Shown here one piece after another: positions 15,117-46,046 of a stretch of 64,000 nt of DNA. Within the stretch, counting starts at the first letter, position 1. The number at the start of each line of letters is the position of its first letter. Under the pieces are notes generated by a model, which did no database searches, was not told the DNA's origin, and worked only from the letters and a program-made list of their open reading frames with translations. The DNA is from Clostridia bacterium (GTDB taxonomy: Bacteria; Bacillota; Clostridia; TANB77; UBA1234), in assembly GCA_017521465.1 (NCBI GenBank), contig JAFXCN010000020.1, forward strand, positions 5,797-69,796. Direction: 5' to 3'. Both the position numbers and the translations under genes were made by a program.

Positions 15117-15190
15117 TGGAGGCGCCAATCAGATTTGAACTGATGATCAGGCTTTTGCAGAGCCGTGCCTTACCACTTGGCCATGGCGCC
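15117..15190 (-). tRNA. tRNA-Cys (anticodon GCA)
   Basis: Minus-strand sequence GGCGCCATGGCCAAGTGGTAAGGCACGGCTCTGCAAAAGCCTGATCATCAGTTCAAATCTGATTGGCGCCTCCA folds as a cloverleaf. Anticodon loop is CTGCAAA; T-loop is TTCAAAT; 3' end is CCA. Confidence 0.85.
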
Positions 15191-16881: not shown

Positions 16882-16940
16882 TTGTGCTATAAGAAAAATA
16901 ATAACTCAAGATAAATTGGAACTTGAAAGGAGCGAAACTT

Positions 16941-17375
16941 ATGCTATATACGGAGCTTACTAAAAAGGCTATGAAAATTGCATTTGATGCTCATAAAGAG
17001 CAAGTAGACAAAAACGGTATTCCATACATTTATCATCCTGTTCATTTGGCTGAACAGATGAATACTGAATATGAGATTTGTGTAGCTTTTCTTCATGACA
17101 CGGTCGAAGATTGTGATGTTACATTTGATGACTTGATTGAAGCGGGTTTCCCTGATGAAGTTGTTGAAGCTCTTAAACTTATGACACACGATAAAAGTGT
17201 ACCGTATATGGAATATGTAAGAAAAATAAAAAATAATCCTATTGCAAAAGCAGTTAAGCTTGCTGATTTACGTCATAATAGTGATTTGACCAGACTTGAT
17301 CATGTTACGGAAAAAGATTTGATACGTAAGAAAAAGTATGAACAAGCAATTCGTCTTTTGTCTTCGCTTGATTAA
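16941..17375 (+). CDS. HD-domain (p)ppGpp hydrolase-like protein (small alarmone hydrolase type)
   Basis: RelA/SpoT-type HD motifs AHKEQ...PYIYHP...FLHDTVED. ATG 16941 behind RBS GAAAGGAG. Confidence 0.65.
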   Translation: MLYTELTKKAMKIAFDAHKEQVDKNGIPYIYHPVHLAEQMNTEYEICVAFLHDTVEDCDVTFDDLIEAGFPDEVVEALKLMTHDKSVPYMEYVRKIKNNPIAKAVKLADLRHNSDLTRLDHVTEKDLIRKKKYEQAIRLLSSLD

Positions 17376-17385
17376 ACTATAAAAC

Positions 17386-17417
17386 TATCAAAGAACTCTG
17401 AAATTCAGGGTTCTTTT
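17386..17417 (+). terminator. rho-independent terminator
   Basis: AGAACTCTGAA-ATT-CAGGGTTCT followed by TTTTTT. Confidence 0.6.
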
Positions 17418-17469: not shown

Positions 17470-20400
17470 ATGAAAAAGAAAATTATAATAAGCTTTATAT
17501 TGATATGTATAATTGTGGCGTTAATAGCCTTTTTTATACATAACCAAAATAATCATTCAATTGATACAAAATTTGTAAATTATCCTACATTTACAGTAAC
17601 AGCTACAAGCGAACATAACAATCTTATAGATATTGATACATCATTTAACTTGAAAGCAAGTGAGGGAACAACACTTGAATTAGTTCAATCTTGTTTTTCT
17701 ATTACGCCAAAAGTTGAATATGAAATAAATGAAATCTCAAAAGATTATTATGCCTTAACATTAAAAGAAGAATTGGAAGCAGATAAAATTTACAATATTG
17801 AATATAAGACGGATAAGGCGCCATATAAATGGTCATTTCAAACAGAAAAGAAATTTAATGTTGCAAACTTTTATCCAGGAAATAAAGAATATGTATTGCC
17901 ATCAACTGTAATTGAGATAGATTTTACATATATTCCAGATGACAATATTAGAGAATTTTTTGCTATTTCTCCAAATGTCGAAGGTAAATTCTTATTTGAT
18001 GAAAGAAGAATAAGATTTGTTCCAAATGGAAAGTTAGCGTTAGCCACTACATATGAAGTGACAATATTAGAAGGATATGGTAATAAAGAAAATGACGAAA
18101 AAACAACAGAACAATCATTTAGTTTTTCAACTACTATATCTGAAAAATATGGAACTATGTCAAATCTTAAAAAAATAGATTTTGATGCGGATAAATATGC
18201 TTTTGGTGAAAATCAAGATATTTATATCAGTCATTATAATTATTATGACGACAATATCACTAATTACAAAATAGCTATATATCAATATAAAAATTCTGTT
18301 GATTTTGTAGAGGATTTAATGGCCAAAGAAGTTTATGGTAATTATCCAGAATTAAAACCAGTAGACTTAACAAGATTGGATAAAATTGATGAAAAAGAAT
18401 TGCTAGCTACTGATGTTGTTGAATATGAATATTCGTGGAAAAAAGCTGTACCAATAGATGCTAATCTGTCAGAAGGATATTATATTGTTGTGATAACTAT
18501 TAATGGAATTGATTACTACATGCCGCTTCAAATAAACAATACTATTGCAGTTACACAATATTTTGATGATAGATTGATGGTGTGGGTTCATGATTTAAAA
18601 ACACAAAAACCATTTGCAAATGCAAAAATAAAGATTGATGATATAGACATGGGAGTGACGAATAAAGAAGGTTATTGCGTGCTAACTGGAATTGAACTTC
18701 CGGAAGATAAAGATTTATTAGTACAAATATATGCAGAAAACAGAACTACGATATATGATGTTATAACTTCTCATAATTATTGGTCGGGTGCAACGTCAGA
18801 ATATGATAATACATATATTAAATTTGATAGAGATACATTTAAGACGGGAGAGATACTTAATACTTGGGGATTTATAAAAGATAGACGAAACATTGAAACA
18901 AAAGAATGTACATTAACAATAAAATCATCTTCAGAAGGAGCTGTTTTTGAAGAAAGGAAAATTACACTTGATGAGTTTGGAACTTTTAAGGCTGCTTTTG
19001 ATTTAACTAATTATACAAGTGGTTCTTATTTTTTATCTGTCTATGCGAACGGAAACCAAACTAGTGAAAAATGGTTTGAAATAAGAGATTATGAAACAAA
19101 TTCTTATGATGTATCTATGTCGTTAGATAAGAAAAATGTAAGAGCTGGTGAAAAAATAACGTGTTCTTTAAATGTAAAGCTATTTGATGGAACACCATTA
19201 GAAAATATACGTTATAATGCCAAAATAGAAATGGGCGATAAAGTAACAACAAAAGAAATAACAACAGATGCAAATGGAGATGCAAGCTTCGAGATAGATA
19301 CATCAATATATTATACATATAACAATATTATATATGGTTATGTCCGTTTGACTCCAATTGGTATAGAAGATCAAAATTATCTTGCTAAATCTTTTTCAGT
19401 ATATCCTCATGAAGAAACCTTTGAGACAAATGGGAAATATATTGATAAAGAGAAAATGTATGAATTTAATATAGAAACTTATTATAATGATTACACTAAT
19501 ATGGATGAAGTGAAAAAAGGTGCATTAACAAATAGAACGGGAAAAGTAATGCTTACTAGATATAGAAAGGAAAAAGTGGTTACATCAACTTATTTTGATG
19601 AAAATACAAAAACAATGAAAGAAAACTATAAAATAGTTAAACACTTTGACGGATTTGAAGAACTTGAATACACAACTGTCGATGGAAAAGCTACTGTTAG
19701 ATATGCATCGCCATATGCTACAAGAGACGAAGGTGTAGTCGAATATACAGCATCGTTCTATTCTGAAAAGGATTGGAAAAATATAAGTGATAGATGGACA
19801 TATGTTAGTGAAGAATATGACGCTAACGAAAATCAAGTAGATTTCTTAATGAATAATTACTATCTAGATAGTGATGCGGAACCATATGGATGCAAAGTTG
19901 GACAAGAAATAAATTTGAAAGTTGTTAATGTTACTGATGATAAAACACCAGAAAATGTATATGTAATGTACGTTTTAAAATCTGCGAAAGGCACTGAAAT
20001 AATATACACAGATAAAGCTGAATATAAACTGAAATTTGAAAAAGAATTTGGAGCAGATATTACTATTGAGGGATTTGTATTTGATGGAACAACAATAAGA
20101 GCTTTAGGTGATTACTACTATGACACTCAATATAGATTTTCTCTTGCTGATGAAGAATTAGATATGCAAGTTGAAGTTGAGTTTGATAAAGAGCACTATA
20201 AACCAGGCGATACAGCTAAATTAAAAATCGTAACAAAAGTTGATGATAATCCTGTAAAAGCGGCGGTCAACTTAAGTGCAGTTAATAAGGAATACCTTGC
20301 AGCAAATCCGCAATATAATGGTGATATACTGTATGCATTGCATAATTATTATAATTTTTACATTAAAGCAGAAAGTTTCACTCATACAATACTTTCTTCA

Positions 20401-22236
20401 TCGTTTGAAGGTGGCGGTGGAGGCGGTGGCGATGGAGTTCGTATAGACTTTGCAACCACAGCATTATTTGACACTGTTTATACCGATGAAAATGGTGTTG
20501 CAGAATATGAAGTAAAACTTCCGGACAACATTACTACATGGAATTTGAATGTAGAAGCTACAACTAAAGATTATAGAGCTACATCTATAGATAAAGATAT
20601 TGTTGTTACCTTGCCATTCTTTTCAACTGCAGTTATGAATGAAAAATATTTGGTGGGAGAAACACCAAGTGTAAGCATTAGAAGTAATGGTACAGATGTA
20701 AAAACAGGTGATAAAGTTACATATGATGTGACTATAACGGATACAAATAATAAGATTACGAAATTTACTAAAGAATCTGAAATAGGAAAATATTTAAATA
20801 TTTCGTTGGGCAAACTTGAAAGGGGAGAATATACTCTTCTCGTGAAAGCTAGTTGTAATGGGTTGACAGATGCTTTCGAAAGAACTATAGAAGCGGTTAA
20901 CACTTTACAAGAAACAACAAATACAACACCATGTGATTTGATTAAAGGCGAAAAGATTAGTGTGGATAAGGGAAGCGGTGTAGTATATCTATATAACGCA
21001 GATATAGAAAAAATCTTTGATGATTTAGTGAAATTATCAATGTTACCAAGAGTTAGAAACGATCAAAAGGTTATATCATATATGACAGACAATCTTTGGA
21101 GAAAATTGCAAAATATAGATGCGCCAGCTGATAAGCCATATATAAATACATATAATGGAATAGAATTAATTGAAGATTTTTCGAATAAAGATTCATTATT
21201 AACAGCCAAAATTGTTTCGACAGGATATTTTGCAGAATCGAAATCACAAGATATCATAAAATATTTTAAAAATATTATTAAAAACGATGATATTGATATT
21301 AGAGAAAAACTATATGCATATTGGGGATTGGCAGCATTAAAAGAGCCAGTGTTAAATGATATAAAATTACTTGATTCAGAATTTGCATATATGGATAGTT
21401 ACGAAAAAGCTATAGTTGGTTTGGCATATGCTGATATAGGCGATTATGTGAGTGCAAACAAAATTTTTGATGAACTAATTTTGCTTGCTGATCAAGCGTC
21501 AAACGAAACATATGAGTATATAACAATGTTAGCATTTAAACTAAATAGGCAAGAAAGAGAAAACTTATATGATAAATATCTTTCGCTAAATAGAGAATCA
21601 GAATATTCGAATTTTGTAAAATTATTTAGAATACAAAACGAAGTGCAAAATAATGTTGAAGATGCGTATGTAAATTTAGAAGTAAATGGCGAAGAAAAGA
21701 AAATTGATATTAAAGGAATCAATATAGAAAGCTTTGCATTTACATATAAAGATGAGATAAAAATAAAAGACAAGAGCGACAATCTTCTTTCAAGATTTAG
21801 AAGAACAGAAGAAATAACTTCTAAAAATGCACCAAAAATAAATGCGATTTCGAAAACATATATAGTTAATGGTAAAGAAAGTAATACTTTTAAAATGGGA
21901 GATATGGTTACTGTTACAATAAAACTTGATTATAATGAATTGGCAAAAGAAAATATACCATATCTATATACGGTAGAAGATGTAATGCCAAACTGTTTCA
22001 AATATTCTTATGAAGAAGATTATGACTATGAACATTTAAAAGTAGATTCGCCATATAAAAAAGACGGACAAAAATTATATTTCTATGTTCATAAATGTAA
22101 CGAAGGTGAACAATACATCTCATATACTGCTATAGCAACTGCGAAAGGTGAATTCGTTTCAGATGGGGTAATACTTAAAAATACAGAAAACAAAGTAATA
22201 GATTATCACAAAATAGATAATATAATTGTAGAATAA
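17470..22236 (+). CDS. alpha-2-macroglobulin-family (MG-domain) giant protein, N-terminally membrane anchored
   Basis: 1588 aa with N-terminal TM. A2M-family signature FATTALFDTVYTDENG...LPDNITTWNLNVEATT...LPFFSTAVMNEKYLVGE. A run of 7 Gly precedes it. Confidence 0.6.
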   Translation: MKKKIIISFILICIIVALIAFFIHNQNNHSIDTKFVNYPTFTVTATSEHNNLIDIDTSFNLKASEGTTLELVQSCFSITPKVEYEINEISKDYYALTLKEELEADKIYNIEYKTDKAPYKWSFQTEKKFNVANFYPGNKEYVLPSTVIEIDFTYIPDDNIREFFAISPNVEGKFLFDERRIRFVPNGKLALATTYEVTILEGYGNKENDEKTTEQSFSFSTTISEKYGTMSNLKKIDFDADKYAFGENQDIYISHYNYYDDNITNYKIAIYQYKNSVDFVEDLMAKEVYGNYPELKPVDLTRLDKIDEKELLATDVVEYEYSWKKAVPIDANLSEGYYIVVITINGIDYYMPLQINNTIAVTQYFDDRLMVWVHDLKTQKPFANAKIKIDDIDMGVTNKEGYCVLTGIELPEDKDLLVQIYAENRTTIYDVITSHNYWSGATSEYDNTYIKFDRDTFKTGEILNTWGFIKDRRNIETKECTLTIKSSSEGAVFEERKITLDEFGTFKAAFDLTNYTSGSYFLSVYANGNQTSEKWFEIRDYETNSYDVSMSLDKKNVRAGEKITCSLNVKLFDGTPLENIRYNAKIEMGDKVTTKEITTDANGDASFEIDTSIYYTYNNIIYGYVRLTPIGIEDQNYLAKSFSVYPHEETFETNGKYIDKEKMYEFNIETYYNDYTNMDEVKKGALTNRTGKVMLTRYRKEKVVTSTYFDENTKTMKENYKIVKHFDGFEELEYTTVDGKATVRYASPYATRDEGVVEYTASFYSEKDWKNISDRWTYVSEEYDANENQVDFLMNNYYLDSDAEPYGCKVGQEINLKVVNVTDDKTPENVYVMYVLKSAKGTEIIYTDKAEYKLKFEKEFGADITIEGFVFDGTTIRALGDYYYDTQYRFSLADEELDMQVEVEFDKEHYKPGDTAKLKIVTKVDDNPVKAAVNLSAVNKEYLAANPQYNGDILYALHNYYNFYIKAESFTHTILSSSFEGGGGGGGDGVRIDFATTALFDTVYTDENGVAEYEVKLPDNITTWNLNVEATTKDYRATSIDKDIVVTLPFFSTAVMNEKYLVGETPSVSIRSNGTDVKTGDKVTYDVTITDTNNKITKFTKESEIGKYLNISLGKLERGEYTLLVKASCNGLTDAFERTIEAVNTLQETTNTTPCDLIKGEKISVDKGSGVVYLYNADIEKIFDDLVKLSMLPRVRNDQKVISYMTDNLWRKLQNIDAPADKPYINTYNGIELIEDFSNKDSLLTAKIVSTGYFAESKSQDIIKYFKNIIKNDDIDIREKLYAYWGLAALKEPVLNDIKLLDSEFAYMDSYEKAIVGLAYADIGDYVSANKIFDELILLADQASNETYEYITMLAFKLNRQERENLYDKYLSLNRESEYSNFVKLFRIQNEVQNNVEDAYVNLEVNGEEKKIDIKGINIESFAFTYKDEIKIKDKSDNLLSRFRRTEEITSKNAPKINAISKTYIVNGKESNTFKMGDMVTVTIKLDYNELAKENIPYLYTVEDVMPNCFKYSYEEDYDYEHLKVDSPYKKDGQKLYFYVHKCNEGEQYISYTAIATAKGEFVSDGVILKNTENKVIDYHKIDNIIVE

Positions 22237-22536: not shown

Positions 22537-23862
22537 ATGATGTTAGTAGGACCTATGAAGAAAAAAATGGTAACAACGGTTATTCTTGTTGTTATTATAT
22601 TGACAGTAATATTTGGGGTTATAGGCTTTTTATTGTTGAGTGGTAAGCAAAATCAAATTGATGAATTAATGAAAAAAGCAGAGGTAGTAGAAAGATATGT
22701 GTTTACAGAGAACTTTCCTGCTGGTCACGTAATTGATGGTGATGATTTGACCTTAGCTGTTGTAAAAGCGGAGAGCACACCAGATAATTCATACAGTTTT
22801 CAAACTGTTGTAACTCCTGGCAATAGAGAGGAAATATACCAATATACAGGAACAACATACAAAACTGGTGAACTTGTAAATACGTTAGAGTTGCTTATAG
22901 GAAGAACATTAAAAATTAATGCATCAAGAAAAACAACATTAACTGATGAAATGCTTGTTCCAATCGATGAAACACCTTCAGACGATTTGAGACTTGAAGA
23001 ATTTACAATGATTAATCTTCCAAGTGATGCGGTTGATGGTGAATATATTGATGTTAGAATAATGTTCCCTACCGGTGAAGACTTTACAGTTTTACTTGGA
23101 AAGAAAATAGAAAAGTATACAGATAGTACAATTTTCTTAAAACTTACTGAAGATGAAATTTTAACTATGGGAAGTGCTATTGTTGAAGCTTATATGTATG
23201 AAGGAACAAAAATATATGCAACAAAATATGTAGATCCTTCTAATCAATTATATAGTTATAAAAAAATAGACTATGTTGCTAAATATAAGGCAGCTGTAGC
23301 TAGTTTGATAGAATCAAAAGAAGAAAAGAATCTTGAAGCGATTATTGAAAAATTCAGAACTGCTAGTCCAGAAGAATATGAAGCCTTATTAGCAGAATAT
23401 CCAGATACATATAGAGAAGAACTTGCAAAAAGACATTCAAATGAAATTAAAGTAATGGAAAGAGACGTTGAAATCAATGAGATTGCACAATACATTGGAT
23501 TGAACGAATATGAAACTGAAGAACTAAGAACAGCAATCGATGAAAAGAATGAAGATGTAATTTCAAAATATGAAAACAAAATTGTAACATCTAAGAAACA
23601 ATTAGCAAGAACTTATCCTGTAAAACCAGAAGTTTTATCTGTAATAAAATCTAATCCGAATATTCTAAAAGAAATTAAGGATACTTTTGATGTTACAGCT
23701 CAAATATCAGGCGAAGTTCAAAAATTTGATCCAACATTATATGGAGATGAAAATAGTATTCAAGAAGCATATGAAAAATATGTAGAAAACGTAAAAAATG
23801 AACTTCAAACACAAAAAGATGAAAGAGTAAAATATTTAAATTCATTAATTGCAGGAGAATAA
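22537..23862 (+). CDS. CpaB/RcpC-like pilus assembly protein with long C-terminal helical extension
   Basis: N-terminal TM. SAF-like segment VVERYVFTENFPAGHVIDGDDL. CpaB-like beta-rich region (YIDVRIMFPTGEDFTVLL). C-terminal 200 aa is a charged helical extension. Confidence 0.5.
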   Translation: MMLVGPMKKKMVTTVILVVIILTVIFGVIGFLLLSGKQNQIDELMKKAEVVERYVFTENFPAGHVIDGDDLTLAVVKAESTPDNSYSFQTVVTPGNREEIYQYTGTTYKTGELVNTLELLIGRTLKINASRKTTLTDEMLVPIDETPSDDLRLEEFTMINLPSDAVDGEYIDVRIMFPTGEDFTVLLGKKIEKYTDSTIFLKLTEDEILTMGSAIVEAYMYEGTKIYATKYVDPSNQLYSYKKIDYVAKYKAAVASLIESKEEKNLEAIIEKFRTASPEEYEALLAEYPDTYREELAKRHSNEIKVMERDVEINEIAQYIGLNEYETEELRTAIDEKNEDVISKYENKIVTSKKQLARTYPVKPEVLSVIKSNPNILKEIKDTFDVTAQISGEVQKFDPTLYGDENSIQEAYEKYVENVKNELQTQKDERVKYLNSLIAGE

Positions 23863-23874
23863 AAATAGGAGGAT

Positions 23875-24630
23875 ATGCAAATGAAAAGTATAGGATTTGT
23901 TGGCGAAATGGATAAAACAGGATTACTTTTATGCGTTGGAAAAATGATAGCCTCGCTAGGTGCAAAAGTAATGTTTGTTGATGCTACAAAAGCACAAAAA
24001 ACTAGATATGTAGTTCCACTTGTTATGGATAATGAAACACAAGAACAATATATTACACAACATGATGGAGTTGAAGTTGCTGTAGGATTTAACAATATAC
24101 TTGAGCTAAAAAAATACCTATTATCGAAAGGCGAAGATTTTTCAGAATATGAATATATCTTAATAGATAGTGATAATGAAGAAATGTGTGAAGAATATGA
24201 TATGAAAAGTGCAAACAAATTATTTTTTGTTACAACCTTTGACAAAATGCATTTGGCTAAAGGTTTAGAATTATTGAAATTTGTATGCGCATCAAAAAGA
24301 AGAGAAGATCCAAACGGTTCAGTTAATATTGAAAAAATATTATCATATACGCAAACGAATATTAAAGCAGTTGATGATAGATATATAGAAAGACTAACAG
24401 AAAACTTACCTATTAATTGGGCAACAGAAAAAATAGTTGTATCATATGACGAAGGTGATTTATCAGCCTTTATTCAAAATCAATACAGAAACAAAATAGA
24501 ATTTAGAGATATGACACCACAAACAAAAATAGGTATTATTGATGTTGTTTCTGTGGTTACAGGCGAAGAAAAAACAAGACTTAAAAAAGTTTTAAAAAGT
24601 ATTGAAAAAAATGCAAGATTTATTGGGTAA
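23875..24630 (+). CDS. ParA/MinD-fold protein with degenerate Walker A (TadZ/CpaE-like pseudo-ATPase)
   Basis: IGFVGEMDKTG occupies the place of the deviant Walker A KGGVGKTT. YILIDSD is Walker-B-like. Confidence 0.45.
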   Translation: MQMKSIGFVGEMDKTGLLLCVGKMIASLGAKVMFVDATKAQKTRYVVPLVMDNETQEQYITQHDGVEVAVGFNNILELKKYLLSKGEDFSEYEYILIDSDNEEMCEEYDMKSANKLFFVTTFDKMHLAKGLELLKFVCASKRREDPNGSVNIEKILSYTQTNIKAVDDRYIERLTENLPINWATEKIVVSYDEGDLSAFIQNQYRNKIEFRDMTPQTKIGIIDVVSVVTGEEKTRLKKVLKSIEKNARFIG

Positions 24631-24654
24631 TAGATTGAAAGGGGAGTAACAAAA

Positions 24655-25488
24655 ATGCCAATAGTATCATTTTGGAGTACAGTAGAATCTACTCAAACTT
24701 CTACAACATCTACTGCTGTAGCTGTAGCAAATGCTATAGCTACTAGACCAGATGTAGGATATAAAACACTATTAATGCAAACACACTATAATAATTTTGA
24801 TATGGAAACTTCTTATTACAACATGAATAAAATGTCTTCAAAAGGAAGTCTTGATATCGCAGATACAGGAATAGACGCGTTAGATAGATTGTTAAGAAGT
24901 AATAAATTAACACCTGAAAATATACCAAACTATGCAAAACCAGTTTTAAAAGGCAAATTAGAATTGCTTTATGGTACATTTAAAAATGATAGAGATTCAT
25001 ATGAAAGAGTCTTAGAAACAATGCCTATGATAGTCGACTATGCAAGTCAACTATATGACATGGTATTTGTAGATTTGAATAGAGGTTATGGTAATGCAGC
25101 TATGACCCAAATTCTTCAAAAATCTGATTTAATAGTTTTAACTATGAGCCAGAAAACAGAGGTATTGAAAAAATTATTTAAAGATGTAGAAGATTTAAAA
25201 ATCTTCAAAGAAAAACCAGTAATTTCAGTTATAGGTAGATATGATAGATTCTCAAAATATAATTCAAAGAATATTGCTAGAACATTTAACTATAAGAAAC
25301 CTATATACTGTATACCATACAATACACAATTCTTTGATGCTTGTAATGAAGGAAAAGCTTTGAATTTCTTCGTTGAAAATATGAATGCAGATATTGCAAC
25401 AGATAGAAATGGATATTTTATTTCAGAGGTAAATAAGATATCAAATCAAATTATGGAAGAATTAAAATCGAAATTAGTTGAAAGATAA
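24655..25488 (+). CDS. ParA/MinD-fold protein lacking a P-loop (second TadZ/CpaE-like)
   Basis: IVSFWSTVESTQTSTTSTAVAVANAIA replaces the P-loop. MVFVDLNRGYGN and LIVLTMSQ segments follow the ParA architecture. Confidence 0.45.
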   Translation: MPIVSFWSTVESTQTSTTSTAVAVANAIATRPDVGYKTLLMQTHYNNFDMETSYYNMNKMSSKGSLDIADTGIDALDRLLRSNKLTPENIPNYAKPVLKGKLELLYGTFKNDRDSYERVLETMPMIVDYASQLYDMVFVDLNRGYGNAAMTQILQKSDLIVLTMSQKTEVLKKLFKDVEDLKIFKEKPVISVIGRYDRFSKYNSKNIARTFNYKKPIYCIPYNTQFFDACNEGKALNFFVENMNADIATDRNGYFISEVNKISNQIMEELKSKLVER

Positions 25489-25512
25489 AATGAAAAGAGG
25501 TGATACTCTAAT

Positions 25513-27432
25513 ATGTTTATTAACTATACATTGATAGGCATTTTAATATTTGGTGCAATATTTTTCTTTGCATATATCTTCGTGAAAAAAGATAATACTA
25601 TGTTACCTAAAAACGAACGTGATAGCAGAATGTATACTGTTGAGCAAATGACTAAATTTATTAAAGCGAGACTTGACGAAATAACAAGAACAAACCTTTA
25701 CGATATAGGATTATCTGAAGAAGAATTGAAAAGAAGAAAAAGCAAAAAATATGAACTAAAGAAAGCCTTAAAAGGTTGTACATATGGAGATGTAAACGAT
25801 AAAAAATATATTAAAGAGTTGATATTTGATTTATTACATAGAGAATATGGAGTGAATCAAGTAAATATCACTAATGCTATAGATTTTGATAACGTTGATA
25901 AACTTACAACAATTGATAAGTTTGACATATTGTTATATATGTACAAATTACAATATGGATATAATGCATTAACAGAATTAATAGTGAAATATAACTTAGA
26001 TGATATAAAAACGGTATATGGTTCAACAACTCCATCATATGTAATTACGCCAGAAGAAATTGATGATATTTTTGAAAAAGAATATGATTATCTTTCTTTT
26101 GAAGATAGATTAAATATTTTATCTCAAAGAATATATCAAAATTATAAAGGATTTAGTGTAATTGATGAAATAAGAGATATGAACATAGATGGTATCTCTG
26201 GAGGTGTTTCTGGTCTTCCAGAATCATTTATGTATCAAGTTGCACAACTTGGTGATTATATTAAGCAAACTCAAGAAAAAACTATACCAAGAGCTTACGA
26301 TAGTGTATGGATTTTCTTTAGAGGTAAATCAATCCAAATGGCTTGTTTGTCATTTGGCTCATATGATGAATTAAAGAGAGTATGTCAAAATATTTATAAA
26401 TACAATAATCCAGGACAATTATCAGATACAAATGGATATAAGATTAATGAAATGAAAGACGGTTCCCGTGTCGTTGTTGTTAGACCAAGTATGTCTGAAT
26501 CATGGGCGTTCTTTGTAAGAAAGTTCGACACACCAAATGCCGTTCTTGAAAACTTGATCAAGCAACCAGGAAAAGAATTTGTAATACCAATGCTAAAATT
26601 CTTGGTAAAAGGTGCCAGAGTTACAGCTCTTACTGGTGAACAAGGTTGTGGTAAAACAACAATGCTTATGGCGATGATAAAATATATTTATCCAACTCTA
26701 AACATAAGAGTTCAAGAAACTGCATTCGAGTTACACTTAAGAAAAGTTTATCCAAATAGAAACATATTAACATTTAGAGAGACGGATACAGTTTCAGGAC
26801 AAGAAGGACTTGACCTTCAAAAGAAAACTGACGGTGCTGTTAACATCCTTGGAGAGGTTGCTACTGACGCGGTTGCTGCTTGGATGATTCAGATGGCCCA
26901 AGTTGCTTCAAAATTTACAATCTTTACTCACCATGCTAAAACATTTGAAAATTTAATACTATCTCTTCGTAACTCATTATTGAAGATTGGTATGTTTAAC
27001 AATGAAAAAGTTGCTGAAATACAGGTAGTAAACGTTATGAACTTCGAAGTACATCTAAAAAGAGGTTTCGATGGTTCGAGATTTATAGAAAGAATAACAG
27101 AATGTATTCCGATAAAGGAAAAAAATCCATATACATTTGATCACAGAAATGAAACAACATTAGAAGGGAAATTTGATAAATTTATGGATAATGCAACTCA
27201 CTATTTCCAAAAGATTACAGAAACAGAAACATTCAAAGCTGTTAATATAATTGAATTCCAAGATGGTGAGTATGTAATAAAAAATAGAATTTCAGATGAA
27301 AACATTGCATTAATGAAAGAAAACATGTCTGATGAAGACCAAAAGCTTTTCAAAGAATATTTGGATGAATATTTTGGTGGTGCAGGTGGTTATGTAGCTT
27401 CTAATACAAATAGAAGAATAGTAATTGATTAA
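25513..27432 (+). CDS. CpaF/TadA/VirB11-family secretion ATPase with N-terminal TM anchor and long N-domain
   Basis: Walker A TGEQGCGKTT. Asp/Glu boxes NILGEVATDAV. His box FTHHAKT. N-terminal hydrophobic segment LIGILIFGAIFFFAYIFV. Confidence 0.75.
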   Translation: MFINYTLIGILIFGAIFFFAYIFVKKDNTMLPKNERDSRMYTVEQMTKFIKARLDEITRTNLYDIGLSEEELKRRKSKKYELKKALKGCTYGDVNDKKYIKELIFDLLHREYGVNQVNITNAIDFDNVDKLTTIDKFDILLYMYKLQYGYNALTELIVKYNLDDIKTVYGSTTPSYVITPEEIDDIFEKEYDYLSFEDRLNILSQRIYQNYKGFSVIDEIRDMNIDGISGGVSGLPESFMYQVAQLGDYIKQTQEKTIPRAYDSVWIFFRGKSIQMACLSFGSYDELKRVCQNIYKYNNPGQLSDTNGYKINEMKDGSRVVVVRPSMSESWAFFVRKFDTPNAVLENLIKQPGKEFVIPMLKFLVKGARVTALTGEQGCGKTTMLMAMIKYIYPTLNIRVQETAFELHLRKVYPNRNILTFRETDTVSGQEGLDLQKKTDGAVNILGEVATDAVAAWMIQMAQVASKFTIFTHHAKTFENLILSLRNSLLKIGMFNNEKVAEIQVVNVMNFEVHLKRGFDGSRFIERITECIPIKEKNPYTFDHRNETTLEGKFDKFMDNATHYFQKITETETFKAVNIIEFQDGEYVIKNRISDENIALMKENMSDEDQKLFKEYLDEYFGGAGGYVASNTNRRIVID

Positions 27433-27448
27433 TTAAGGGAGGATTGAT

Positions 27449-45700: not shown

Positions 45701-45707
45701 TTATAAA

Positions 45708-46046
45708 AAGAGCAAATCTATAAGCCGGGTTCTGTATTTGATAATCATTTATCTAGGATATACATTGCTGTATACCTCAAGCCGCCTTCTTCAAGAAGTA
45801 ATAGCGGGCAACTTAAACTTCTTCCATGGCGTTGCTCCGAGTGGGGTTTACATAGCCAATATGTCTCCATATTGCTGGTAGGCTCTTACCCTGCCTTTCC
45901 ATCCTTACCTTATTACTAAGGCGGTATATTTCTGTTGCACTATCCTTAGAGTTACCTCCACCAGCCGTTAGCTGGCACCCTGCCCTGTGGAGCCCGGACT
46001 TTCCTCATATGCTATAAATAGCATCCGCGATTATCTGACTTACTCC
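45708..46046 (-). ncRNA. rnpB: RNase P RNA
   Basis: Minus strand contains GAGGAAAGTCCGGGCTCCACAGGGCAGGGTGCCAGCTAACGGCTGG and the 3' P4 strand ACAGAACCCGGCTTA. Promoter TTGACT-17-TATAAT at about 46060-46090 (minus). Ends are approximate. Confidence 0.85.

What the first reader, a model, noticed from the sequence alone, without database searches (positions are those of the whole stretch)
25513..27432. Secretion ATPase with N-terminal transmembrane anchor, 350-aa N-domain and atypical catalytic motifs
CpaF/TadA/FlaI ATPases are normally soluble and 400-500 aa. This one is 639 aa. It begins with a hydrophobic helix (LIGILIFGAIFFFAYIFV). Its Walker A is TGEQGCGKTT instead of GGTGSGKTT. The GEVR arginine is replaced (ILGEVATDA). 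The His box is FTHHAKT. The changes could mean altered regulation or a partly degenerate motor.
Basis: seen in the sequence. Interest (0 to 1): 0.6.

Follow-up and report, generated by a model that had tools for sequence, protein, structure and literature searches.

The report
Membrane-anchored Tad-type pilus motor ATPase
This gene encodes the motor ATPase of a Tad-like pilus operon already described in uncultured gut Clostridia (order TANB77); its membrane anchor, extra length and altered catalytic motifs are real, strongly conserved traits of a large Bacillota family and not signs of decay.

Summary
ORF 25513-27432 (+) encodes 639 aa with a strong RBS, an N-terminal hydrophobic helix and the motifs quoted.

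None of the oddities is private to this gene:
- About 91% of N-terminally complete relatives, down to 31-33% identity, carry the anchor.
- Flanking charges predict an N-out/C-in topology.
- The variant motifs are family-wide.

The core catalytic residues are invariant: K381, T382, E406, E448, H474, R319, R336 and R523. Two arginines described as among the most conserved in CpaF are replaced: R359 by A450, and the trans finger R347 by K438.

dN/dS is about 0.06-0.13, so a degenerate motor is rejected.

The gene lies in a ten-gene operon: CpaB-like, two ParA-like, ATPase, a single large platform protein, and pilin-like proteins. This matches the TANB77 pilus cluster of Kim et al. 2024, whose Table 1 lists a 640-aa TadA-like ATPase with one TM helix. 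The existence of the gene and its anchor is therefore published; the catalytic re-wiring and the family's breadth appear not to be.

My inference, untested, is that the tether locks the ring N-face-to-membrane, making it an extension-only motor.

The parts
25513..27432 (+). Membrane-anchored CpaF/TadA-like ATPase gene, 639 aa
25496..25502 (+). Shine-Dalgarno sequence AGAGGTG, 10 nt before the ATG
25516..25587 (+). N-terminal transmembrane anchor (residues 2-25), predicted N-out/C-in
   Evidence: Hydropathy. Modelled helix at pLDDT about 88-90. Present in 103 of 113 relatives. Positive-inside charge bias.
25588..25638 (+). Linker between anchor and N1 region (residues 26-42); residues 26-37 predicted disordered
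   Evidence: pLDDT below 50 at residues 26-37. Highest dN/dS of the gene, measured together with the TM helix: 0.2-0.4.
25639..26190 (+). Family-specific helical N1 region with a small alpha/beta insert (residues 43-226)
   Evidence: Model helices 43-59, 69-90, 94-112 and 133-159; strands 165-178. No Pfam or PDB sequence match. dN/dS 0.03-0.05. Its C-terminal end matches the GspE2 N-domain motif.
26191..26544 (+). N2-type domain plus hinge (residues 227-344). Contains invariant R319 (26467-26469; CpaF R223) and R336 (26518-26520; CpaF R241).
   Evidence: Alignments to CpaF. Invariance.
26545..27123 (+). RecA-like catalytic domain (residues 345-537)
26632..26661 (+). Walker A, TGEQGCGKTT. Family consensus T-G-x-Q-G-[STC]-G-K-T-T.
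   Evidence: K381 is invariant.
26707..26733 (+). Asp box, RVQETAFEL. E402 and E406 are kept (E406 = CpaF E312). The Asp (CpaF D309) is replaced by T403. R399 is a family-specific arginine.
26821..26826 (+). K437-K438. K438 occupies the position of the trans-acting arginine finger (CpaF R347; the FlaI and GspE2 'ALRQRP' arginine).
   Evidence: Profile alignments to CpaF, FlaI and GspE2. Lys in 143 of 151 sequences.
26839..26862 (+). Walker B, VNILGEVA. The catalytic E448 is kept. A450 replaces CpaF R359.
   Evidence: Ala in 129 of 151 sequences.
26902..26943 (+). His box, VASKFTIFTHHAKT. H474 (CpaF H382) is kept. S466 replaces CpaF H374.
27124..27429 (+). Family-specific C-terminal extension (residues 538-639)
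   Evidence: Model: helix 550-569, beta-hairpin 574-589, helices 595-620. Median length 88 aa in the family. No database match.
22537..23862 (+). CpaB/RcpC-like bitopic protein, 441 aa; first gene of the conserved cassette
   Evidence: One TM helix. Syntenic in 78 of 84 loci. A faint SAF hit for its positional counterpart in L087. CpaB by structural homology in PMC11680825. No Pfam hit here.
23875..24630 (+). TadZ-like divergent ParA/MinD-type protein, 251 aa
   Evidence: Profile against PDB: MinD at E = 0.11 only. Syntenic in 77 of 84 loci. TadZ by structural homology in PMC11680825.
24655..25488 (+). CpaE-like divergent ParA/MinD-type protein without a canonical P-loop, 277 aa
   Evidence: Orthologues hit AAA_31 (9 of 26, best 2.4e-6) and CbiA (7 of 26). 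ParA 3ea0 at E = 0.01. Syntenic in 80 of 84 loci.
27449..29809 (+). Single polytopic platform-like membrane protein, 786 aa, about 8 TM segments
   Evidence: TM count. Syntenic in 81 of 84 loci. TadC-like and TadB-like halves by structure in PMC11680825. Not detectable by sequence here.
29956..31722 (+). Four small pilin-like genes (127, 128, 140 and 160 aa), each with one N-terminal hydrophobic helix. Three begin MDNxxKA.
   Evidence: Syntenic in 72-77 loci, except the 140-aa gene, which is found in only 7.
31733..32923 (+). Last cassette gene, 396 aa, one N-terminal TM helix. Positional counterpart of the large pilin-like 'protein 938'.
32929..32963 (+). Strong intrinsic terminator closing the operon
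   Evidence: 15-bp stem followed by a T-run.

Best explanation
The gene encodes the hexameric motor ATPase of a Tad-like (type IVc-related) filament machine that is conserved in gut Clostridia of the TANB77 group and, in more divergent form, across Bacillota.

**Shown**
- It has the N2-domain plus RecA-domain fold of CpaF, FlaI and GspE2.
- It keeps every residue known to bind ATP and Mg and to catalyse hydrolysis.
- It is under strong purifying selection.
- It is co-transcribed with CpaB-like, ParA-like, platform-like and pilin-like genes.

**Shown at sequence level**
- A single N-terminal helix with positive-inside flanks would insert N-out/C-in. The whole ATPase would then sit in the cytoplasm, tied to the membrane by a 17-residue linker that is disordered at residues 26-37.

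**Inferred**
- Six such tethers hold the ring permanently under the platform protein with its N-terminal face towards the membrane. This is the face that extension ATPases, and CpaF in extension mode, present to the platform.
- The tether, together with a 100-aa C-terminal extension covering the opposite face and the absence of the CpaF R387 equivalent, would prevent the ring inversion proposed for CpaF-driven retraction. The motor would then be a dedicated assembly (extension-only) motor.
- The fixed replacement of two phosphate-contacting arginines (trans finger to Lys438, R359 to Ala450) probably retunes inter-subunit coupling or gamma-phosphate sensing and does not abolish activity. The family-specific invariant residues Q377, R399 and H473 are candidate compensators.
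For: **Identity**
- 59 of 70 family members hit Pfam T2SSE.

**Catalytic competence**
- G380, K381, E406, E448 and H474 are invariant. R319 and R336 are invariant, and R523 is nearly so.
- Their roles are taken from the CpaF structures.

**Selection**
- dN/dS is 0.06-0.13.
- The ATPase shows 66-90% identity where its neighbours show 25-60%.

**Anchor**
-.

**Operon**
- The genes are co-directional with short gaps. Strong terminators are found only at 17390-17416 and 32929-32963.
- Synteny holds in 84 loci and in four distant loci.
- The order matches the published TANB77 cluster gene for gene.

**Orientation argument**
- Whitfield et al. 2026 give N-face for extension and C-face for retraction. 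A C-terminal fusion and an R387A mutation both impair retraction.
- Position 479, equivalent to R387, is not conserved here.
Against: - Nothing here shows ATPase activity, a hexamer, membrane insertion or a filament. No TANB77 organism is cultured.
- Two residues called 'some of the most conserved' in the superfamily (R347, R359) are absent, so reduced or altered activity cannot be excluded.
- The platform protein shows no sequence similarity to T2SSF/TadB/TadC.
- No Flp-type pilin motif and no prepilin peptidase is found in the window or in five related loci.
- The 'Tad pilus' label therefore rests on the ATPase, the ParA-like proteins, gene order and the structural comparisons of Kim et al.
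- The inversion model is a preprint based largely on AlphaFold3 models and mutants.
- A 17-residue linker could span about 60 A if fully extended, so the lock is plausible but not proven.
Confidence: 0.8

Rival explanations
1. The protein is a degenerate or regulatory pseudo-ATPase. It has lost efficient hydrolysis through loss of R359, the trans arginine finger, the Asp-box Asp and the first His, and serves mainly as a membrane scaffold for the machine.
For: A450, K438, T403 and S466 replace residues that are highly conserved in CpaF and other type IV filament ATPases. The Pfam T2SSE score is far below threshold: 12.8 against 24.9 bits.
Against: The Walker A Lys and Thr, both Mg/catalytic glutamates, the His-box His, the N2 arginine and the adenine-clamp arginine are all invariant. 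The substituted positions are themselves fixed family-wide, which indicates a selected alternative and not decay. dN/dS in the catalytic domain is 0.03-0.13. No second T2SSE-type ATPase lies in the operon to do the work.
Confidence: 0.06
2. The machine is not an adhesive pilus. It is instead a transfer or secretion device of monoderms, such as a conjugation-associated mating apparatus, a DNA-uptake pseudopilus or a protein-secretion pseudopilus, with this ATPase as its energiser.
For: - In the distant relative L081/L082 the same cassette follows a TraG/VirD4-type coupling protein and an NlpC/P60 hydrolase. In L085/L086 a phage-type integrase lies upstream.
- The best NCBIfam hit is a 'TadA family conjugal transfer-associated ATPase', although at 29.9 against a 373-bit cutoff.
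- No Flp pilin or prepilin peptidase is recognisable.
- Tad pili of Micrococcus luteus serve transformation (stated in PMC12019362).
Against: - In this window and in L084 and L087 the cassette is flanked by housekeeping genes and no conjugation genes.
- The cassette is conserved across a whole order as a chromosomal core trait.
Confidence: 0.12
3. The hydrophobic N-terminus is an annotation artefact. The true start would be M30, M40 or M46, giving a soluble ATPase.
For: In-frame Met codons exist at residues 30, 40 and 46.
Against: A strong RBS lies 10 nt before the first ATG, and the intergenic gap is only 24 nt. The helix is conserved in position in 103 of 113 relatives down to 31-33% identity. 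pN is well below pS in residues 1-42. Kim et al. independently predicted one TM helix with DeepTMHMM.
Confidence: 0.02

Closest known systems
Protein 930 of the TANB77 pilus gene cluster (Kim et al., Nat Commun 2024, PMC11680825)
   Same: - The gene order is the same: CpaB-like, TadZ-like, CpaE-like, ATPase, single TadC/TadB-like platform, pilin-like genes.
- The ATPase is listed there as 640 aa, COG4962, IPR001482 and one TM helix.
- Related loci here include Clostridium sp. CAG:245 and Ca. Merdicola.
   Different: - The paper only tabulates the TM helix. It does not discuss the anchor, the catalytic substitutions, the C-terminal extension or the missing prepilin peptidase; the words 'prepilin' and 'peptidase' do not occur in it.
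- This window's copy is about 66-70% identical to the CAG:245-type ATPases. Its cluster has fewer pilin-like genes, and its last gene is shorter (396 aa against 621 aa).
CpaF/TadA of Caulobacter crescentus (PDB 8RKD, 9E24)
   Same: - Identical counterparts exist for K287, T288, E312, E357, H382, R223, R241 and R431.
- It likewise sits in an operon with ParA-type and CpaB-type partners.
   Different: - It has an N-terminal TM anchor where CpaF has nothing, an IDR or FHA+IDR. Those are the only three classes in PMC12019362.
- It has a longer N1 region and a C-terminal extension of about 100 aa.
- The substitutions are R347 to K438, R359 to A450, D309 to T403, H374 to S466 and R217 to E313. R387, needed for retraction, is not conserved.
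- Identity is only about 15-19%.
Archaeal FlaI and GspE2 (PDB 4II7, 2OAP)
   Different: FlaI and GspE2 are soluble. They keep the ALRQRP arginine and the arginine after the Walker B Glu (GEIR/GEVR).
Single-orientation CpaF orthologues such as that of Corynebacterium diphtheriae (Whitfield et al. 2026 preprint)
   Same: They are proposed to engage the platform only by the N-terminal face, with degeneration of the retraction-specific C-terminal features. Here the R387 equivalent is likewise not conserved.
   Different: Those proteins lose sequence. This family instead gains a covalent membrane tether and a folded C-terminal extension. The link to this family is my inference and is not made in the preprint.
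Clostridial 'tad-like loci without prepilin motifs' (Imam et al. 2011, PMC3244431)
   Same: These are Gram-positive loci with tadA, tadC, tadZ and rcpC homologues. They have no recognisable prepilin signal, and their genes are only distantly related to other Tad genes.
   Different: Those loci were reported to include tadV. I have not tested whether they belong to the same family as this cassette.

Membership tests
PilT/VirB11-like secretion ATPases (Pfam T2SSE, PF00437) | Scores above the Pfam gathering threshold | tested here: not met
   12.8 bits against a cutoff of 24.9, E = 0.047. Even so, 59 of 70 family members match at E <= 0.01, best 5.5e-14.
PilT/VirB11-like secretion ATPases (Pfam T2SSE, PF00437) | Two-domain fold: N2-type domain plus RecA-like C-terminal domain | tested here: met
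   [not shown]
PilT/VirB11-like secretion ATPases (Pfam T2SSE, PF00437) | Walker A Lys, Asp-box Glu, Walker B Glu and His-box His | tested here: met
   K381, E406, E448 and H474 align to CpaF K287, E312, E357 and H382. They are invariant in 70 to 151 sequences.
PilT/VirB11-like secretion ATPases (Pfam T2SSE, PF00437) | Conserved trans arginine finger (CpaF R347, FlaI R326, PilT R207) and the arginine after the Walker B Glu (CpaF R359) | tested here: not met
   K438 (Lys in 143 of 151, Arg in 2) and A450 (Ala in 129 of 151) occupy these positions in alignments to CpaF, FlaI and GspE2. Their conservation elsewhere is stated in PMC11300603 and PMC12019362.
PilT/VirB11-like secretion ATPases (Pfam T2SSE, PF00437) | Forms hexamers and hydrolyses ATP | not testable with these tools
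   Needs purified protein.
Tad (type IVc) pilus motor CpaF/TadA | Passes the curated TadA or FlaI family models | tested here: not met
   TIGR03819 scores 29.9 against a cutoff of 373 bits. The FlaI model scores 18.3 against 550.
Tad (type IVc) pilus motor CpaF/TadA | CpaF is the nearest characterised relative | tested here: met
Tad (type IVc) pilus motor CpaF/TadA | N-terminal architecture of class I (3HB-NTD-CAD), class II (+IDR) or class III (+FHA) | tested here: not met
   It has a TM helix, a linker and an enlarged helical N1 region. The classes are those of PMC12019362.
Tad (type IVc) pilus system | Operon partners of ParA/MinD type (TadZ/CpaE) and CpaB/RcpC type | tested here: inconclusive
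   - Orthologues of the 277-aa protein hit AAA_31 and CbiA, and ParA 3ea0 at E = 0.01.
- The 251-aa profile gives only MinD at E = 0.11.
- The CpaB-like protein has no Pfham-level match here: no Pfam hit. There is a faint SAF hit in L087.
- Structural homology is reported in PMC11680825.
Tad (type IVc) pilus system | Two separate platform genes, tadB and tadC, each with one T2SSF domain (Denise et al. 2019) | tested here: not met
   There is one 786-aa gene (670-790 aa in relatives). No T2SSF hit appears in 24 orthologues, even at E <= 1. The profile finds no PDB relative. The two halves are not detectably homologous (hhalign probability 1.4%).
Tad (type IVc) pilus system | Flp-type pilin (G/xxxxEY) and a TadV/A24 prepilin peptidase in the locus | tested here: not met
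   The pilin-like N-termini are M[ED]NASKAL followed by a hydrophobic stretch, with no Glu at +5 or Tyr at +6. No polytopic peptidase candidate lies in the window. No A24 Pfam hit appears in L081, L084, L085, L086 or L087.
TANB77 pilus gene cluster (Kim et al. 2024) | Gene order and protein sizes 927-938, including an ATPase of about 640 aa with one TM helix | tested here: met
   Window genes from 22537 to 32923 compared with Table 1 of the paper. Synteny in 84 loci.
TANB77 pilus gene cluster (Kim et al. 2024) | The host belongs to the order TANB77 | tested here: inconclusive
   The nearest loci are unnamed gut Clostridia MAGs. Relatives at 66-70% identity include Clostridium sp. CAG:245 and Ca. 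Merdicola. The window carries no 16S rRNA gene.

The most novel reading that the evidence does not exclude
This family would be a fourth, membrane-tethered architecture class of CpaF-type motors. It would belong to a Bacillota-wide type IV filament lineage that differs from canonical Tad in four ways: an unsplit platform gene, archaeal-style pilin N-termini, no cis-encoded prepilin peptidase, and a Lys in place of the trans arginine finger. Because the ring is covalently tied to the membrane by its N-terminus, it could not invert. It would then be a natural 'orientation-locked', extension-only motor. That would provide a ready-made test of the ATPase-inversion model of Tad pilus retraction, and possibly a glimpse of a pre-fission, archaeal-like stage of Tad evolution.
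Probability: 0.3. Interest if true: 0.7.

Novelty: new variant of a known kind. Interest (0 to 1): 0.42.

Why it matters
- **Clinical link.** The operon is the one whose pilin-like product was linked to better responses to cancer immunotherapy (PMC11680825). Its organisms are uncultured, so sequence-level understanding of its motor is the only handle available at present.
- **Mechanism.** A CpaF-type ATPase that is permanently tethered by its N-terminus is a natural counter-example to test the recent proposal that Tad motors reverse by flipping over.
- **Catalysis.** The fixed Arg-to-Lys and Arg-to-Ala changes at two phosphate-contacting positions show which 'invariant' residues of this ATPase superfamily are dispensable under selection.
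- **Distribution.** The cassette is much more widely distributed in Bacillota than its description as TANB77-exclusive suggests. It reaches cultured Paenibacillus, which offers experimentally tractable relatives.

Tried and rejected
- **First AlphaFold run.** It used 29 close homologues and gave an unusable model (pLDDT 54). A 70-sequence alignment reaching 31% identity fixed this (pLDDT 88).
- **AFDB Foldseek search.** The library was unavailable, so I could not list named organisms by fold.
- **Platform protein.** A profile against PDB gave nothing. Pfam on 24 orthologues at E <= 1 gave no T2SSF hit. An hhalign comparison of the N-half with the C-half gave probability 1.4%. I therefore could not confirm by sequence that it is a TadC-TadB fusion.
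- **251-aa protein.** Its profile gave only a marginal MinD hit (E = 0.11).
- **Prepilin peptidase.** The search of the window was a scan of ORFs of at least 100 aa for polytopic candidates, with N-termini recognised from my own knowledge. The only candidates look like a BAX-inhibitor-type protein and PlsY. None was tested with a profile.
- **Paenibacillus glacialis homologue.** The genomic context look-up failed because the protein is not on record.
- **A2M-like giant protein upstream.** I rejected it as a system component because a homologue accompanies the cassette in only 1 of 84 loci.
- **Conjugation as a general context.** I considered it. It holds for L081/L082 but not for the window, L084 or L087.
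Full report
**1. The observation**

The ORF at 25513-27432 (+) is real. It has an ATG start and a TAA stop and encodes 639 aa. It is preceded by AGAGGTG 10 nt upstream and lies only 24 nt after the stop of the previous gene. Residues 1-26 are strongly hydrophobic (mean hydropathy 2.58). They are modelled as a single helix, residues 2-25. The Walker A (TGEQGCGKTT), Walker B region (ILGEVATDA) and His box (FTHHAKT) are exactly as quoted.

**2. What it is related to**

- Curated models barely see it. Pfam T2SSE gives E = 0.047, at 12.8 against 24.9 bits. The best NCBIfam hit is a TadA-type model at 29.9 against 373 bits.
- Against solved structures the single sequence finds only CpaF (E = 1e-8, residues 269-535).
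- A profile of 70 family members finds CpaF at 3e-28, then FlaI (4e-15), archaeal GspE2 (2e-13), PilT, VirB11, GspE and PilB.
- 59 of 70 family members hit Pfam T2SSE.

It is therefore a divergent member of the PilT/VirB11-like ATPases on the CpaF/FlaI branch.

**3. The oddities are family traits**

- The protein has at least 7592 homologous clusters (at 90% identity). Almost all are 630-660 aa and come from gut Clostridia MAGs.
- An exhaustive search of 1.84 billion representatives found 355 at E <= 1e-30. The best 150 are mostly full-length at 32-64% identity, mostly 33-52%.
- 103 of 113 N-terminally complete sequences have the N-terminal hydrophobic helix.
- There are 0.18 K/R residues before the helix and 2.7 in the 12 residues after it. 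This is the signature of an N-out/C-in anchor and not of a Sec signal peptide.
- The motif variants are consensus for the family:
  - Walker A: T-G-x-Q-G-[STC]-G-K-T-T
  - Asp box: R-[VI]-x-E-x-x-F-E-L
  - Walker B: G-E-[VI]-A
  - His box: S-x-F-T-x-F-T-H-H-A
- The family reaches cultured Paenibacillus and also Ruminiclostridium.

**4. Residue-by-residue comparison with CpaF**

Residue roles come from the two CpaF cryo-EM papers (PMC12019362 and PMC11300603).

| CpaF residue | Role | Residue here | Status |
|---|---|---|---|
| K287 | Walker A Lys | K381 | kept |
| T288 | Mg ligand | T382 | kept |
| E312 | Asp box, Mg | E406 | kept |
| E357 | Walker B catalytic Glu | E448 | kept |
| H382 | His box | H474 | kept |
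| R223 | conserved N2-domain arginine finger | R319 | kept |
| R241 | hinge | R336 | kept |
| R431 | adenine clamp | R523 | kept |
| R347 | trans-acting arginine finger of the neighbouring subunit | K438 | changed |
| D309 | Asp box Asp | T403 | changed |
| H374 | first His-box His | S466 | changed |
| R217 | non-conserved N2-domain arginine | E313 | changed |

- The kept residues are invariant or nearly so in 70-151 sequences.
- The K438 assignment is reproduced against FlaI and GspE2, whose 'ALRQRP' arginine aligns with it.
- The family-specific near-invariant residues Q377, R399, R289 and H473 are candidate compensators. I could not test their geometry because no coordinates are available.

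**5. Not a decaying gene**

- Against six orthologues, overall dN/dS is 0.06-0.13.
- By region: N2 domain 0.004-0.08, catalytic domain 0.03-0.13, extra N-helical region 0.03-0.05, C-terminal extension 0.06-0.26, and TM plus linker 0.2-0.4.
- dS is near saturation, so the ratios are approximate. Even so, pN is far below pS everywhere.
- The ATPase is the most conserved gene of its operon.

**6. Architecture**

| Residues | Element |
|---|---|
| 2-25 | TM helix |
| 26-42 | linker (26-37 predicted disordered) |
| 43-226 | helical N1 region with a small alpha/beta insert |
| 227-344 | N2-type domain and hinge |
| 345-537 | RecA-like domain |
| 538-639 | C-terminal extension (helix, hairpin, two helices) |

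- The last part of the N1 region matches the GspE2 N-domain motif.
- Neither the N1 region nor the C-terminal extension has any Pfam or PDB sequence relative.
- The published survey of CpaF architectures knows three classes: minimal, +IDR and +FHA. None has a TM helix.

**7. Context**

- The gene is the fourth in a run of ten co-directional genes (22537-32923). The run ends at a strong terminator at 32929-32963. Another strong terminator lies at 17390-17416, before the upstream A2M-like gene.
- The genes, in order:
  1. a bitopic 441-aa protein;
  2. a 251-aa divergent ParA/MinD-like protein;
  3. a 277-aa divergent ParA/MinD-like protein;
  4. the ATPase;
  5. a 786-aa protein with about 8 TM segments;
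  6. to 9. four small proteins (127-160 aa), each with one N-terminal hydrophobic helix;
  10. a 396-aa protein.
- For the ParA/MinD-like pair, orthologues of the 277-aa protein hit AAA_31 and CbiA. PDB profile hits are marginal.
- This order is kept in nearly all of the 84 related loci examined by tblastn; each core gene was detected in 64-81 of them.
- Loci at only 30-44% ATPase identity have the same gene number and sizes. They include a complete 1.97-Mb chromosome.

**8. Already published**

- Kim et al. 2024 (PMC11680825) describe this cluster as conserved in the uncultured gut order TANB77. Their Table 1 lists:
  - 927: CpaB;
  - 928: TadZ;
  - 929: CpaE;
  - 930: TadA/CpaF, 640 aa, 1 TMH;
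  - 931: TadC half plus TadB half, 8 TMH;
  - 932-938: pilin-like.
- Loci related to this window include Clostridium sp. CAG:245 and Ca. Merdicola.
- The paper does not discuss the anchor, the catalytic substitutions or the lack of a prepilin peptidase. No filament has been observed, and the organisms are uncultured.
- Imam et al. 2011 had noted Clostridial tad-like loci without prepilin motifs.

**9. Where it departs from canonical Tad**

Denise et al. 2019 treat split tadB and tadC genes as a hallmark of Tad and Epd systems, derived by fission of a two-domain archaeal platform.

- Here the platform is one gene. By sequence it shows no T2SSF signal.
- The pilin-like proteins begin M[ED]NASKAL plus a hydrophobic stretch. 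They have no Flp motif and no Glu at +5.
- I saw no polytopic candidate resembling an A24 peptidase in the window. No A24 Pfam hit is on record in the five related loci with gene calls.
- The system works like a Tad machine by gene content but fails several defining features of the family.

**10. Mechanism proposed**

- **Shown:** the fold, the catalytic residues, selection, the operon, and the anchor sequence signature.
- **Inferred:** the ring is tethered under the platform with its N-terminal face towards the membrane.

Whitfield et al. (2026 preprint) argue four points:
1. Extension ATPases, and CpaF in extension mode, engage the platform by the N-face.
2. Retraction uses the C-face after physical inversion.
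3. R387 and a free C-terminal face are needed for retraction.
4. Some orthologues are single-orientation.

Three features of this family bear on that model:
- six 17-residue tethers;
- a folded 100-aa C-terminal extension;
- a non-conserved R387 equivalent at position 479.

Together these make inversion implausible. I therefore propose a dedicated assembly motor. The Lys trans finger and the missing R359 would retune phosphate sensing between subunits. This is a hypothesis and nothing here tests it.

**11. Verdict**

- The finding is real and its description is accurate.
- The 'degenerate motor' reading is rejected.
- The gene and its TM helix are already in the literature as part of the TANB77 pilus cluster.
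- What appears new is threefold: the definition of a large, TM-anchored, catalytically re-wired CpaF-like family that extends beyond TANB77; the ways its system departs from canonical Tad; and the implication for the inversion model.
- I rate the interest as moderate.

Noticed in passing
L081 1052-3914 and L082 (relative P0255, 33% identical ATPase): The same nine-gene cassette lies directly downstream of a TraG/VirD4-type coupling protein (T4SS-DNA_transf, TrwB_AAD_bind, TraG-D_C) and an NlpC/P60 hydrolase. This suggests that some family members ride on conjugative elements of Gram-positive bacteria. In L085/L086 a phage-type integrase lies upstream.
   Followed up: partly
window 29956-31224 and orthologues in L004-L078: The pilin-like proteins share a strongly conserved N-terminus, M-[ED]-N-A-[ST]-K-A-L, followed by a hydrophobic helix. 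The K-A before the hydrophobic stretch resembles archaeal class III signal peptides. There is no Flp motif and no Glu at +5. No prepilin peptidase candidate lies in the window, and none appears among the called genes of five related loci.
   Followed up: partly
L081, L084, L085, L087 against window 22537-32923: Kim et al. report the non-ATPase cluster proteins as essentially exclusive to TANB77. However, cassettes with the same gene number and sizes occur around ATPases of only 30-44% identity, including in a complete 1.97-Mb chromosome (GCA_001486585.1). They also have tblastn-detectable CpaB-like, platform and last-gene homologues. Full-length ATPase homologues also occur in Paenibacillus.
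   Followed up: partly
window 17470-22236 (+): A 1588-aa alpha-2-macroglobulin-like protein (MG2, A2M_BRD and A2M domains, with an N-terminal TM or signal helix) lies directly upstream of the pilus cassette. A homologue accompanies the cassette in only 1 of 84 loci, so it is probably not part of the system.
   Followed up: partly
window 16923-17375; L081 14423-15088; L085 17284-17874: A small HD-domain protein recurs next to the cassette in three unrelated lineages. It is upstream in this window and downstream in L081 and L085. This may be coincidence or a regulatory partner.
   Followed up: no
window 33711-33904: A 35-bp tandem repeat with 5.5 copies and 91% matches lies in the region upstream of, and overlapping, the called GTG start of the VanW-domain gene (32938-33747, minus strand). 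The called start of that gene is probably too far upstream.
   Followed up: partly
window 34494-34686 (+), 45705-46046 (-), 15120-15190 (-): There is a T-box leader directly upstream of an aminoacyl-tRNA-synthetase-like gene (34745-36058). There is also a bacterial class A RNase P RNA and one tRNA. Together with a RecA-like ORF at 1266-2321, these indicate an ordinary chromosomal region.
   Followed up: no
window 24655-25488 and 23875-24630: Both ParA/MinD-like proteins lack a canonical Walker A GK[ST] motif. Their N-termini read ...STVESTQTSTTST... and ...GFVGEMDKTGLL.... They may therefore be non-catalytic scaffolds. Across orthologues, only a few residues of each are invariant.
   Followed up: partly
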